IMG/VR virus record: IMGVR_UViG_3300037449_000119
Coordinates: 282-64,281 of that record
Reading direction: 5' to 3' (one strand)
DNA length: 64,000 nt
Source: a virus
Taxonomy: Duplodnaviria > Caudoviricetes
A program made the position numbers and the translations under genes. The notes beneath the pieces were generated by a model. That model was not told the DNA's origin, ran no database searches, and worked only from the letters and a program-made list of their open reading frames with translations. How positions within the stretch are numbered: the first letter of the stretch is position 1; the number at the start of each line of letters is the position of its first letter. Of the stretch, positions 30,141 to 40,985 are shown piece by piece.

Positions 30141-30440
30141 CCATATAGCGTATTACACAACCAGTAAACATCGCCCGAAGCCCTATGCCTGTTGGCCGTT
30201 TCTATTTTACCCTCCAACATCGCCTACTCCCCGGCGGAGATGCGCCGCACAGGGCTCAAAGGTGCGTGAACACTGGCGATTCGTTGTGGTGTACGCTTGA
30301 AGTACCATGATGCTGACAAAATTCGGGTGTTGTACAATTGGTAAACAGCAAAGCGCGTGGTTCGTAGACCATAAATTGAGCGCATCTCGTTGTGCGGCGG
30401 CTAAAAAGCCGCGCACTCCGCAGTTTGAATTGCAACCCTT

Positions 30441-30450
30441 GTGCTATCCT
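30441..30450 (+). promoter_or_regulatory. extended -10 promoter
   Basis: GTGCTATCCT (TGn-TATCCT) upstream of the 30502 peptide. Confidence 0.4.
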
Positions 30451-32774: not shown

Positions 32775-32789
32775 CGGTTGTGCTATTAT
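32762..32789 (+). promoter_or_regulatory. promoter for the packaging genes
   Basis: TTTACG-16-TATTAT with TG extension; GTG 7 nt downstream. Confidence 0.5.
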
Positions 32790-38761: not shown

Positions 38762-39201
38762 CGCTCTACACAGACGAAGCAGGACTTGATTTTATCGCAG
38801 CCAATGAAGGGCTGGTGCTAACCATTAGCAACGACAACGGACACCCTGTCATCGGCCACGGCCACGACCTCACTCATCAAGAGATTGCCGGCGGTATATA
38901 CGCCAACGGAATCACCACACTCCAAGCACAACTGATTCTTGAGCGTGACTGTCGCGAGTGGGATGCTGCGATCAACGCTCTCAACTGGCCCTTGAACCAG
39001 AATCAACATAACGCCCTCTGCGACTTTACACACAACCTGGGAGTGGGCAAGTTGCAACGGCTCGCGGCGCATGGACAAGAGCAGGTGTGTGTTCAGCTGC
39101 CGCGCTGGGTGTATGAGAAGCAGAACGGTGTTGAGGTGGTGAGCAAGGGGCTCGTCGCGCGACGCGCAAAGGATGTAACGCTGTATCAGACTCCATGCTG
39201 A
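38758..39201 (+). CDS. GH24 phage lysozyme (muramidase), apparent CTG start
   Basis: FIAANEG...D...IGHGH, LNQNQHNAL..F.HNLG, WVY, GLVARR; GGAGG SD precedes a CTGA overlap. Confidence 0.75.
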   Translation: MTLYTDEAGLDFIAANEGLVLTISNDNGHPVIGHGHDLTHQEIAGGIYANGITTLQAQLILERDCREWDAAINALNWPLNQNQHNALCDFTHNLGVGKLQRLAAHGQEQVCVQLPRWVYEKQNGVEVVSKGLVARRAKDVTLYQTPC

Positions 39202-40985
39202 AAACCGAAGACGCCAAGCCGGTGAAGCCCACGCCACAGCAACTACGCAAGCTGGGGCGTGAACGGTTTATCCGCGCACGCCGCGCCGGCTCCGCCTTTC
39301 AGCGTCAGCTCTCCAAGCTGGGCAACCACATCGGCGCGCTTGTAAAGAAGCACGCTCCTGGTGGCGTGGTTTCTGACTGGCGCGCTTTGCGCAAGGCGCT
39401 CAACGATTACGCCGCGCAAATTCGCCCCTGGGCAGAGTCCATCACAGAAAGCCTGCACACCGAAGTCGCGCAACGCGATGCACAGGCGTGGTTCCAGGCT
39501 GGCCGCGAGATAGGGCAACACCTACGCGAAGAGATTGCCTCCGCGCCCACAGGCAAGATGATGAAGTCGCTGCTCGCGGAGCAGGTAGACCTAATCACAT
39601 CGCTGCCCACTGAGGCGGCAGAGCGTGTGCACAAGCTCACTCTGCAGCGCATCGCCCAGGGGCGCAGGCCGGAGTCCTTGGCTCAGGAGATTCTGAAGAC
39701 CGGCGAAGTGACCGTCGCGCGCGCCCGTATGATCGCGCGCACCGAGACTGCACGCACAGCAGCGGCGCTCACTGAGGTTCGCGCAAAGCACATCGGCAGT
39801 GAAGGATACCTGTGGCGCACTGCAAATGACAGCGACGTTCGTCCCGCAATCGGCACACCAGGATTTTCGCAGCTCAACACCCTTGCGATGGGAAGCCATC
39901 GAAAACTTGAAGGTACTTTTCACCGTTGGGACGAGCCGCCTATCGCAGCGCCCACTGGCGAGCACGCACACCCAGGAAGCATATGGAACTGCCGCTGTTT
40001 TTCGTCTGATACGCTTGTGACTAAAGTCACAGGAATTGAAAAGTTATATCGGTCGTACTACCGAGGTGATCTTTGCCGCGTTACAATTGGAGACGCCGAG
40101 TTTACAGCGACACCGAATCACCCGATGCTCACGCAACGTGGTTGGGTGCATGTATGCGAACTCCAAGACAGCGATTACCTCGTTCAGGTGCTCCGTGATC
40201 CACACATCTTCGTCGAAGCCAACGTAGATAGTTTTCACGCCACATTTGGCGAGTTGTTTGGATCGTTGCCTGGACGCGTGGATGTGGCACCGGGAATTTT
40301 GTTTGATCTCTATGGCCGTGTTCCCGATGGCGATGTCCACACAAAGATCATCAATCAACTTCTGACGTGTGACAACGTAGCCAAGAGTCTCAAGCGCAGT
40401 GGCAATTTCACACTCGCCAAACCCAACAGCGGGGTTGAAGGTGCCATTTGTGGCGGCGGTGCGCATGTTGCTGAAACGTCGAGAGCGTGCAGCAGCGACG
40501 CGCTTCTTTCGCCGTTCCAAAGTCATTCTCCCCATGCTGATTTCGTTGGCACTGCTGACGCCTCTTCGAGTGATGCCGGCCTCATTGAGTCGCTGAGTGA
40601 TGGTCCAACGATTGACGTGGTAGAGCGCAGCGAGTTCGAGTTCGCTAATTCCAGAAAGGTACTTGGCGACGATCTTTTCAGCGGGGAGGTTTTTGCGCCC
40701 GTTGCCATGACCGACCGCAGGCGCCCAATGTTTGACGACGCCACCAGCAGCACGAATCGCTTTGCTGAGATTGTCCGGGCTAACTTTGAGCAAGGCCGCA
40801 ACGTCTTTAAGACGGGTGCCGGCATCTATGCGCTGCTTCCCTTCAGAAACGACTTCATTCGTAAGTTTCCGTTTTCGGGCCATGTTTACACGCTCCAAAC
40901 TGACGTTGGTTGGTATGGGGTATCAGCTATGTCTATTATAGCACAAAACTGTTGGGCAGAGCCAGTTTTACCGGATCGTATTTGA
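39195..40985 (+). CDS. MuF/SPP1 gp7-like head morphogenesis protein containing an intein
   Basis: RARMIARTET, YLWRTANDSDVR, H..LEG.F.RWDEPP, HPG..WNCR|C.AEPV. Confidence 0.88.
   Translation: MLKTEDAKPVKPTPQQLRKLGRERFIRARRAGSAFQRQLSKLGNHIGALVKKHAPGGVVSDWRALRKALNDYAAQIRPWAESITESLHTEVAQRDAQAWFQAGREIGQHLREEIASAPTGKMMKSLLAEQVDLITSLPTEAAERVHKLTLQRIAQGRRPESLAQEILKTGEVTVARARMIARTETARTAAALTEVRAKHIGSEGYLWRTANDSDVRPAIGTPGFSQLNTLAMGSHRKLEGTFHRWDEPPIAAPTGEHAHPGSIWNCRCFSSDTLVTKVTGIEKLYRSYYRGDLCRVTIGDAEFTATPNHPMLTQRGWVHVCELQDSDYLVQVLRDPHIFVEANVDSFHATFGELFGSLPGRVDVAPGILFDLYGRVPDGDVHTKIINQLLTCDNVAKSLKRSGNFTLAKPNSGVEGAICGGGAHVAETSRACSSDALLSPFQSHSPHADFVGTADASSSDAGLIESLSDGPTIDVVERSEFEFANSRKVLGDDLFSGEVFAPVAMTDRRRPMFDDATSSTNRFAEIVRANFEQGRNVFKTGAGIYALLPFRNDFIRKFPFSGHVYTLQTDVGWYGVSAMSIIAQNCWAEPVLPDRI
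40044..40883 (-). CDS. HTH-HTH + Vsr/DUF559-like PD-(D/E)XK endonuclease encoded antisense inside the intein
   Basis: GTRLKDVAALLKVSPDNL; YLSGISELELAALYHVNRWTI..RL...G; GECEIATALETLGYVVTRQ...CVDIAIGNTAIEIK...LAKCGVKTIYV; GGAG SD at 40893-40896. Confidence 0.75.
   Translation of the reverse strand: MARKRKLTNEVVSEGKQRIDAGTRLKDVAALLKVSPDNLSKAIRAAGGVVKHWAPAVGHGNGRKNLPAEKIVAKYLSGISELELAALYHVNRWTITQRLNEAGITRRGVSSANEISMGRMTLERRKKRVAAARSRRFSNMRTAATNGTFNPAVGFGECEIATALETLGYVVTRQKLIDDLCVDIAIGNTAIEIKQNSRCHIHASRQRSKQLAKCGVKTIYVGFDEDVWITEHLNEVIAVLEFAYMHPTTLREHRVIRCRCKLGVSNCNAAKITSVVRPI
40935..40945 (-). promoter_or_regulatory. extended -10 promoter for the antisense nuclease
   Basis: TGTGCTATAAT on the - strand, within the block G codons (ATT ATA GCA CA). 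Confidence 0.65.

What the first reader, a model, noticed from the sequence alone, without database searches (positions are those of the whole stretch)
40881..40945. Intein splicing blocks F and G double as start codon, SD and promoter of the antisense nuclease
Seen: the His codon CAT of block F (GHVYTLQ, 40881-40883) is the antisense ATG. ACG CTC CAA (TLQ) gives an antisense GGAG SD 9 nt upstream. Block G codons ATT ATA GCA CA read TGTGCTATAAT on the - strand, a perfect extended -10; the same TGTGCTAT prefix occurs at phage promoters near 30441 and 32780. The ATA Ile codon looks unusual for this GC-rich gene set. Inference: the expression signals travel inside the intein, making it a self-contained cassette, and the antisense RNA could also dampen MuF expression.
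Basis: partly seen in the sequence, partly recalled or inferred. Interest (0 to 1): 0.8.

Follow-up and report, generated by a model that had tools for sequence, protein, structure and literature searches.

The report
Promoter hidden inside intein splicing blocks
A self-splicing insert (intein) in a phage head-assembly gene carries its DNA-cutting "homing" enzyme as a backwards gene, and that gene's start codon, ribosome site and promoter are written into the codons of the intein's last two splicing motifs. Related phages keep these codons at silent positions, so the insert can probably switch on its own nuclease wherever it lands.

Summary
On the minus strand, CAT 40881-40883 (His of GHVYTLQ) reads ATG. 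GGAG lies at 40896-40893, 9 nt upstream. TGTGCTATAAT lies at 40945-40935 and is the only TGnTATAAT in the 64-kb phage.

The ATG opens a 279-codon gene (40883-40044), read codon against codon inside a 318-residue class 1 intein (39996-40949) at the NCRC motif of the MuF gene. Its product is a tandem-HTH plus Vsr/EDxHD-like nuclease (AlphaFold pLDDT 89.7).

- **Start codon:** 29 of 31 homologous His codons are CAT.
- **Ribosome site:** SD-like 4-mers are enriched (17 of 26 loci, 7.5 expected).
- **Promoter:** a perfect antisense TATAAT lies 28-51 nt upstream in 18 of 39 loci (4.5 expected, P about 4e-9).
- **One clade** carries a complete TTGACA-N18-TATAAT inside the last 58 nt of the intein.

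No transcript data exist, about half the loci lack a perfect -10, and dampening of MuF is untested.

The antisense layout was already published in a 2025 actinophage preprint, and this scan has met it in at least 20 other genomes. The overprinted, silently conserved expression signals are the new detail.

The parts
39195..40985 (+). MuF-like head-morphogenesis gene, precursor of 596 aa including the intein
   Evidence: Pfam PF04233 E 1.5e-12. phrog_324 E 2.6e-50. phrog_15127 covers residues 119-586.
39996..40949 (+). Class 1 intein of 318 codons, CFSSDTLV...SIIAQN, inserted as NCR|C in the NCRC motif. The +1 Cys is at 40950-40952.
   Evidence: C1, T39-x-x-H42, N318 and the +1 Cys are invariant in a 30-sequence alignment. 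In the AlphaFold model residues 1-121 and 250-318 are mostly confident (dips at 72-78 and 101-110) and 122-249 are below pLDDT 50. The top Foldseek matches are mini-inteins, probability 1.00.
40044..40883 (-). Antisense homing-nuclease gene: 279 codons plus a TAA stop at 40046-40044. It is codon-aligned with the intein frame. The product has two HTH domains and a Vsr/EDxHD-like PD-(D/E)xK core (E157, Q174, D183, E192, K194).
   Evidence: 779 cluster representatives match at E<=1e-3, and most begin at the same Met. pLDDT is 89.7. Foldseek matches 3r3p and 3hrl with probability 1.0. The profile hits 3hrl at E 7e-4.
40881..40883 (-). ATG start codon of the nuclease, which is the CAT His codon of block F (GHVYTLQ)
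   Evidence: The homologues' N-termini align here. CAT is used in 29 of 31 homologous His codons.
40893..40896 (-). GGAG Shine-Dalgarno, 9 nt before the ATG. It is made by the Leu CTC and Gln CAA codons of block F.
   Evidence: SD-like 4-mers occur in 17 of 26 loci against 7.5 expected from synonymous resampling, P 2e-6.
40935..40945 (-). Extended -10 promoter element TGTGCTATAAT, made by the block G codons ATT ATA GCA CA(A). No usable -35 (2 of 6).
   Evidence: It is the only TGNTATAAT in the window. TATAAT recurs at this place in homologues.
40928..40928 (-). Predicted transcription start, about 7 nt after the -10 box, giving a leader of about 45 nt. Inferred, not shown.
   Evidence: Rule of thumb only. 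The leader has no significant fold, z -0.11.
40104..40127 (.). Doubly coding stretch. Intein block B (TATPNHPM) on the + strand is read on the - strand as nuclease residues 253-260 (HRVIRCRC), a predicted core beta strand.

Best explanation
The MuF gene carries a class 1 intein. The intein's homing nuclease is a separate gene on the opposite strand, read from the same codon triplets.

That gene is expressed from signals overprinted on the intein's C-terminal splicing region:
- a -35-independent extended -10 promoter, TGTGCTATAAT, in the block G codons (Ile-Ile-Ala-Gln);
- a leader of about 45 nt;
- a GGAG ribosome-binding site in the Leu-Gln codons of block F;
- an ATG that is the complement of the block F His codon.

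All of these lie between the nuclease ORF and the intein's last codon. They therefore move with the intein when it homes into an empty MuF allele, and host RNA polymerase can transcribe the nuclease in any new phage, even though it sits backwards inside a block of late genes.

**Shown:** the sequence elements, the reality of the intein and of the nuclease gene, and conservation of the elements at silent positions across many lineages.

**Inferred:** that the -10 box fires, where transcription starts, the timing of expression, and nuclease activity and target.
For: 1. **The elements are present and unusual in this phage.** The TGnTATAAT is unique in the window, and the joint codon chance is about 1.7e-4.
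2. **The nuclease is a lone minus-strand gene** among + strand head genes, so it needs its own promoter.
3. **The gene is real.** It has 779 relatives, intact catalytic residues, pLDDT 89.7 and an I-Bth0305I-like fold. The sense-strand middle of the intein (residues 122-249) is below pLDDT 50.
4. **The arrangement is conserved.** All 35 distinct loci examined that have a host ORF across the nuclease gene keep it antisense and codon-aligned in an open ORF: MuF-type (...N|CRC or NCR|C) in nearly all, three with other host ends (L032, L038, L041).
5. **Silent-site conservation.**
   - CAT is used in 23 of 25 His codons against 11.5 expected, P 3e-7. All 6 further loci also use CAT.
   - SD-like 4-mers occur in 17 of 26 loci against 7.5 expected, P 2e-6.
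   - Perfect antisense TATAAT occurs 15-72 nt upstream in 17 of 33 loci against 3.5 expected, P 1e-12.
   - With uniform codon usage it is 18 of 39 against 4.5, P 4e-9.
   - At least four different codon contexts make the hexamer: ATT ATA, AAT TAT ATA, GAT TAT A and TAT TAT A.
   - 10 of 21 intein clusters at 45% identity carry it.
6. **It is position-specific.** 17 hits fall in the 100 nt before the start, against about 0.7 per 50-nt bin elsewhere.
7. **One clade has a full promoter.** The clade that includes the cultured Vibrio phage vB_Vp_PvVp04_M has TTGACA-N18-(T/C)ATAAT wholly inside blocks F-G. Codons GTG TCA (-35), GAT TAT (-10), CTC (SD) and CAT are invariant or nearly so, while neighbouring Asn, Cys, Arg, Val and Thr codons are scrambled.
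8. **Loci that could do without a promoter lack it.** The two cultured phages without any -10 box here (Edwardsiella MSW-3, Klebsiella KpTDp1) have co-oriented genes just upstream that could supply transcription.
Against: - There is no transcript or start-site evidence of any kind.
- About half of the homologous loci lack a perfect TATAAT. In a small second sample only 1 of 6 had it, and the others had 4-5 of 6 matches.
- The window has no -35 (2 of 6), so activity rests wholly on the extended -10.
- The loci are related, so the P values overstate independence. The cluster-level count (10 of 21) is the safer figure.
- A weaker promoter-like site lies outside the intein on the same strand at 41035-41007, TTTTCA-17-TATATT, 9 of 12. 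It could contribute.
- Codon-usage backgrounds were estimated from only 0.4-1.6 thousand codons per locus.
Confidence: 0.72

Rival explanations
1. The start codon and ribosome site are real, but transcription of the nuclease in this phage comes mainly from outside the intein. Candidates are the intergenic region after MuF and antisense read-through. The block G TATAAT would then contribute little.
For: A minus-strand promoter-like site lies at 41035-41007, 9 of 12, in the MuF-to-next-gene spacer. MSW-3 and KpTDp1 lack an internal -10 and have co-oriented upstream genes. About half of all loci lack a perfect -10.
Against: The outside site is a weak match. The internal element is the only TGnTATAAT in the genome, and it sits where TATAAT is conserved at silent sites in 10 of 21 intein clusters.
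Confidence: 0.15
2. The conserved codons serve the sense strand, not a promoter. Examples would be rare ATA codons that slow the ribosome while the intein folds, or DNA-level constraints near the homing junction.
For: ATA is a rare codon here, 12% of Ile. The conserved codons lie next to the splice junction.
Against: A pause model does not predict a consensus TTGACA and TATAAT 18 nt apart on the opposite strand. It also does not predict four different codon contexts giving the same antisense hexamer, an SD at 6-10 nt, or CAT at the exact codon where the antisense protein family begins. Where the nuclease starts elsewhere, the residue is not His.
Confidence: 0.05
3. The signals are a chance match and the antisense ORF is an unexpressed relic of a former invasion.
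For: No expression data exist. In GC-rich DNA, long antisense ORFs arise easily in the codon-aligned frame.
Against: The catalytic residues are invariant, the fold is confident, and there are 779 relatives, including a free-standing annotated gene next to an intein-less MuF in Acinetobacter phage IME285. The comparative statistics also argue against chance.
Confidence: 0.03

Closest known systems
Inteins with an anti-sense VSR-like homing endonuclease in MuF-like minor capsid proteins of actinobacteriophages (Gosselin, Arsenault and Gogarten, bioRxiv 10.1101/2025.01.02.630785)
   Same: The host protein family is the same, the nuclease gene is on the antisense strand of the intein, and the nuclease type is the same Vsr-like/EDxHD-like kind, with the same PDB relative 3R3P. 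A homologue lies antisense in the MuF gene of Gordonia phage Angelicage.
   Different: The word 'promoter' does not occur in that paper. [quoted passage not shown] Here the ORF starts inside block F and ends about 16 codons after block A, and its promoter, SD and ATG are overprinted on blocks F-G. This phage is Gram-negative-type: DNA similarity points to Burkholderia phages, and cultured relatives infect Vibrio, Edwardsiella and Klebsiella.
'Fractured genes': split inteins with a free-standing Vsr-like or GIY-YIG endonuclease gene between the halves (Dassa et al. 2009, PMC2677866)
   Same: The nuclease family is the same. The nuclease is a separate gene at the place of the endonuclease domain. 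It brings its own control regions and overlaps the intein coding sequence by 6-69 bp.
   Different: There the host gene is broken in two and, as the authors' model implies (not checked here), the nuclease is on the same strand. Here the host ORF stays continuous because the nuclease is read backwards, codon against codon.
I-Bth0305I, the EDxHD homing endonuclease of a group I intron (PDB 3R3P; Taylor et al. 2011, PMC3239194)
   Same: The catalytic-domain fold matches (Foldseek probability 1.00, TM 0.62-0.64 on the target). It is also a mobile-element nuclease of phages.
   Different: Sequence similarity is marginal (profile E 0.056). The N-terminal DNA-binding part differs: here it is a paired-like tandem HTH. 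It is carried by an intron, not by an intein.
Anti-sense LAGLIDADG inteins (Synechocystis DnaX and others; Gorbalenya 1998 and Gogarten 2002, as cited in the 2025 preprint)
   Same: The endonuclease ORF is on the antisense strand of a contiguous intein.
   Different: The nuclease family is different. I could not check whether expression signals were described for these, because the original papers were not read here.
Homing-endonuclease genes of phage group I introns with their own promoters (for example T4 td/I-TevI; my own knowledge, not checked here)
   Same: A mobile element carries the transcription and translation signals for its own nuclease.
   Different: In introns the signals lie in non-coding RNA. 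Here they are written into codons that must also encode splicing-competent protein.

Membership tests
Class 1 intein (Hint domain) | Nucleophile (Cys/Ser/Thr) at intein position 1 and at extein +1 | tested here: met
   C268 of the precursor and C586. C1 is invariant in 30 sequences.
Class 1 intein (Hint domain) | Block B Thr-x-x-His | tested here: met
   TPNH. T39 and H42 are invariant.
Class 1 intein (Hint domain) | C-terminal Asn, usually preceded by His | tested here: met
   N318 is invariant. The penultimate residue is Gln here and Lys, Ser, Arg, Gln or His in relatives, so the usual His is mostly absent. This is a known variation.
Class 1 intein (Hint domain) | Hint fold | tested here: met
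   In the AlphaFold model residues 1-121 and 250-318 are mostly confident, with dips at 72-78 and 101-110. The top Foldseek hits are DnaX and RecA mini-inteins, probability 1.00. Pfam found no Hint model at E<=0.1.
Class 1 intein (Hint domain) | In-frame insertion in a conserved host motif, with intein-less alleles existing | tested here: met
   It is inserted in the NCRC motif of MuF. The intein-less MuF of Acinetobacter phage IME285 reads ...CKC... uninterrupted.
Class 1 intein (Hint domain) | Protein splicing activity | not testable with these tools
   Needs expression and a gel or mass-spectrometry assay.
Anti-sense VSR-like HEN intein (Gosselin et al. 2025) | Complete nuclease ORF on the antisense strand within the intein | tested here: met
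   40883-40044, codon-aligned. The same holds in all 35 distinct loci with a host ORF across the nuclease gene.
Anti-sense VSR-like HEN intein (Gosselin et al. 2025) | Vsr-like/EDxHD-like nuclease fold | tested here: met
   Matches to 3r3p and 3hrl.
Vsr/EDxHD-like PD-(D/E)xK homing endonuclease | Conserved acidic and Lys catalytic residues on the alpha-beta-beta-beta-alpha-beta core | tested here: met
   E157, D183 and E192 are invariant or nearly so in 74 sequences, and K194 in the 11 closest. They lie on strands E172-195 of the model. Residue-by-residue equivalence with I-Bth0305I was not checked.
Vsr/EDxHD-like PD-(D/E)xK homing endonuclease | Site-specific cleavage of the intein-less allele | not testable with these tools
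   Needs an enzyme assay.
Sigma-70 extended -10 promoter | TGnTATAAT at a suitable distance upstream of a gene on the same strand | tested here: met
   40943-40935, 51 nt before the ATG, and unique in the window.
Sigma-70 extended -10 promoter | Evolutionary conservation beyond what the coding sequence demands | tested here: met
Sigma-70 extended -10 promoter | Mapped transcription start and RNA polymerase dependence | not testable with these tools
   No transcript data are at hand.

The most novel reading that the evidence does not exclude
Across this whole intein family, the C-terminal splicing blocks and the nuclease's promoter, leader and start have fused into one overprinted module. The block F His would then exist mainly because it is the antisense ATG. 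The intein would be a transcriptionally autonomous mobile unit, and its host-type promoter, firing head-on into the late MuF transcript, would also time or dampen MuF expression.
Probability: 0.2. Interest if true: 0.7.

Novelty: new member of a known kind. Interest (0 to 1): 0.5.

Why it matters
An ordinary intein needs no promoter, because its endonuclease is part of the host protein. An intein with a backwards nuclease gene does need one, and how such genes are expressed has not been described.

Here the answer can be read from the DNA. The promoter, ribosome site and start codon are packed into codons that also encode splicing residues, and they are kept at silent positions in many lineages. 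This has three consequences:
- It is a clean natural case of three layers of information in one stretch: a protein motif, transcription and translation signals, and further in, two structured proteins on opposite strands.
- It explains how the element stays mobile between unrelated phages.
- It warns annotators that hundreds of phage MuF genes hide an unannotated nuclease gene. Edwardsiella MSW-3, Klebsiella KpTDp1 and Vibrio PvVp04 are cultured examples.

For intein engineering, it means that 'silent' recoding of such inteins can remove a promoter.

Tried and rejected
- **Pfam on the antisense protein.** No family at E<=0.1. PHROGs gave only weak DNA-binding and HNH labels.
- **Word-indexed protein search.** One relative only. 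The exhaustive HMMER search was needed to see the family.
- **The search for related loci.** The single protein found nothing in viral contigs. Smaller alignments worked.
- **-35 box in the window.** The best match is 2 of 6, so a classical promoter was rejected in favour of an extended -10.
- **Folded regulatory leader.** The predicted 5' leader folds no better than shuffles, z -0.11. A structured leader reported by an earlier scan note for another genome is not supported here.
- **Terminator after the nuclease stop.** There is only a 5-bp hairpin at 40064-40049, and the number of such sites is no higher than in shuffles.
- **Shared TGTGCTAT 8-mer as evidence.** Three copies against 1.2 expected, and 11% of shuffles reach that. 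This is suggestive only.
- **TTG at 40898 as the start.** Rejected, because the family's N-termini align with the ATG and the TTG overlaps the SD.
- **Promoter presence against neighbour-gene orientation.** The pattern is consistent for MSW-3 and KpTDp1 but not clean overall.
Full report
**What is at the coordinates**

The window is a complete 64-kb phage genome with terminal repeats.

The + strand gene 39195-40985 encodes a 596-aa MuF-type head-morphogenesis protein (PF04233, phrog_324). Residues 268-585 (39996-40949) form an intein inserted in the conserved NCRC motif. It begins CFSSDTLV, has block B TPNHP and block F GHVYTLQ, and ends SIIAQN before Cys.

A 30-sequence alignment keeps C1, T39, H42 and N318 invariant. 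In the AlphaFold model residues 1-121 and 250-318 are mostly confident, with dips at 72-78 and 101-110, while residues 122-249 stay below pLDDT 50. Its best structural matches are mini-inteins with probability 1.00.

On the minus strand, an ORF of 279 codons runs from ATG 40883 to the stop at 40046-40044, using the same triplets as the intein.

**The antisense gene is real**

- An exhaustive HMMER search finds 779 cluster representatives at E<=1e-3. Most are 270-300 aa and begin at the same Met.
- The alignment shows two helix-turn-helix units and a PD-(D/E)xK core. G-x-G-E157, Q174, D183 and E192 are invariant or nearly so in the 74 sequences, and K194 in the 11 closest.
- The AlphaFold model has mean pLDDT 89.7.
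- Its nuclease domain matches the I-Bth0305I catalytic domain (3r3p) and the endonuclease-like protein 3hrl with probability 1.0. Profile search against PDB sequences agrees.

The same protein lies unannotated and antisense in the head or MuF genes of Edwardsiella phage MSW-3, Klebsiella phage KpTDp1, Vibrio phage vB_Vp_PvVp04_M, Idiomarinaceae phage 1N2-2 and Gordonia phage Angelicage. In Acinetobacter phage IME285 it is a free-standing annotated gene, convergent with an intein-less MuF.

All 35 distinct loci examined that have a host ORF across the nuclease gene have it antisense, codon-aligned, inside an open ORF. In nearly all of them that ORF is MuF-type and its intein ends ...N|CRC or NCR|C. 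L032, L038 and L041 show other host ends.

**The three signals in the window**

- ATG is the complement of CAT 40881-40883.
- GGAG lies at 40896-40893, with 9 nt to the ATG.
- TGTGCTATAAT lies at 40945-40935.

TGnTATAAT occurs nowhere else in the genome on either strand, against 0.35 expected. Every neighbouring gene is on the + strand, so this gene needs a promoter of its own.

There is no usable -35 (2 of 6). The element would therefore work as an extended -10 promoter. That also means everything needed lies inside the intein, which ends 4 nt beyond the TGTG.

Given the amino acids, this phage's codon usage gives a joint chance of about 1.7e-4 for ATT, ATA, GCA, CAT, CTC and CAA.

I took 33 non-redundant loci (the window, three cultured phages and 29 IMG/VR contigs) and later added 6 metagenome loci. 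For each I resampled synonymous codons while keeping the sense protein fixed.

| Signal | Observed | Expected | P |
|---|---|---|---|
| CAT among His codons at the start position | 23 of 25 | 11.5 | 3e-7 |
| SD-like 4-mer, 4-12 nt upstream | 17 of 26 | 7.5 | 2e-6 |
| Perfect antisense TATAAT, 15-72 nt upstream | 17 of 33 | 3.5 | 1e-12 |
| Same, uniform codon usage, all loci | 18 of 39 | 4.5 | 4e-9 |

Further details on the start codon:
- The two exceptions are CAC, which reads GTG. One locus has Gln CAA, which reads TTG.
- All 6 later loci use CAT.
- In seven loci the residue at this position is not His, and the nuclease starts elsewhere. In three of them (L029, L033, L036) the start is the complement of another His CAT three codons away.
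- The His therefore tracks the antisense start, not splicing.

Further details on the -10 box:
- The hexamer is made in at least four codon contexts: Ile-Ile ATT ATA, Asn-Tyr-Ile AAT TAT ATA, Asp-Tyr-(Ile/Thr) GAT TAT A, and Tyr-Tyr-(Thr/Ser) TAT TAT A. It sits at two preferred distances, 28 nt and 45-51 nt.
- Nine of 14 Ile-Ile pairs in block G are ATT ATA.
- The enrichment is local: 17 hits in the 100 nt before the start, against about 0.7 per 50-nt bin over the other 1.3 kb.
- Counting intein clusters at 45% identity in place of loci, 10 of 21 carry the hexamer.

**A clade with a complete promoter inside the intein**

Nine loci have TTGACA-N18-TATAAT (CATAAT in two of them), starting 2 nt inside the intein's last codon. 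They include the cultured Vibrio phage. The general promoter scanner finds the same site as 12 of 12 with TG in L025 and 11 of 12 in the Vibrio phage.

Within this clade the following codons are invariant or nearly so:
- -35: Val-Ser, GTG TCA
- -10: Asp-Tyr, GAT TAT
- SD: Leu, CTC
- start: His, CAT

The Asn, Cys, Arg, Val, Thr and Gly codons between and beside them use two to five synonymous forms. This within-clade contrast argues against simple shared ancestry as the cause.

**Limits**

- Nothing here shows transcription.
- About half the loci lack a perfect -10. In the second, independent sample only 1 of 6 had it, and the rest had 4-5 of 6 matches.
- MSW-3 and KpTDp1 have none, but they have co-oriented genes just upstream that could supply transcription.
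- A weak promoter-like site outside the intein (41035-41007) exists in the window.
- The predicted leader has no significant structure.
- The idea that the antisense RNA dampens MuF could not be tested.

**Comparison with what is known**

The layout itself is published. Gosselin, Arsenault and Gogarten (bioRxiv 10.1101/2025.01.02.630785) report anti-sense VSR-like endonucleases, possibly EDxHD with relative 3R3P, in minor capsid inteins of actinophages. They cite older anti-sense LAGLIDADG cases. Dassa et al. 2009 described the same nuclease family as free-standing genes in split-intein 'fractured genes', with their own control regions.

The word 'promoter' does not occur in the preprint. [quoted passage not shown] A full-text search found no paper on promoters of antisense intein endonucleases.

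This scan has met the arrangement in at least 20 other genomes, several with a note of 'its own promoter'.

The element is therefore a new member of a known kind. What this report adds is a quantitative demonstration that the start codon, SD and promoter are overprinted on splicing blocks F and G and kept by selection.

Noticed in passing
window 40104-40127 (both strands): Intein block B (TATPNHPM, with the catalytic Thr and His) is the exact complement of nuclease residues 253-260 (HRVIRCRC). This is the family's conserved (Y/H)(W/R)VIRC motif and a predicted core beta strand. Two functional motifs appear to be encoded by the same codons on opposite strands. The nuclease core (about residues 176-260) lies opposite the structured N-terminal Hint region, and HTH1 lies opposite the intein's C-terminal region.
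   Followed up: partly
window 39987-39998 and 40947-40955; L039: The intein here and in L039 sits between R and the second C of NCRC (NCR|C...N|C). All other relatives have it before the first C (N|C...N|CRC). Both give the same spliced NCRC product. This is a two-codon shift of the insertion point within one intein family.
   Followed up: partly
L003:399-457 (Acinetobacter phage vB_AbaM_IME285): The free-standing homologue next to an intein-less MuF has a TG-extended TAAAAT box ending 28 nt before its ATG. This is the same distance as in the full-promoter intein clade. Its leader ends ...ATGCAC ATG like that of Klebsiella phage KpTDp1. The complement reads HVHSLM-stop, which resembles block F. 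It could be a relic or chance.
   Followed up: partly
L001 (Edwardsiella phage MSW-3), L002 (Klebsiella phage KpTDp1), L004 (Vibrio phage vB_Vp_PvVp04_M): The GenBank records annotate only the long head or 'hypothetical' protein. The roughly 300-codon antisense nuclease gene inside it is unannotated in all three.
   Followed up: yes
window 30440-30450 and 32779-32789 (+): Two intergenic extended -10-like boxes share the TGTGCTAT prefix: TGTGCTATCCT and TGTGCTATTAT. The second is preceded by TTTACG at 16 nt and by tandem GGGGTGTTTACG repeats. They are plausible early promoters of the phage.
   Followed up: partly
L025:2356-2384 (-): A near-consensus promoter, TTGACC-17-TATAAT, lies on the MuF strand just after the MuF stop, back to back with the intein-borne nuclease promoter.
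   Followed up: no
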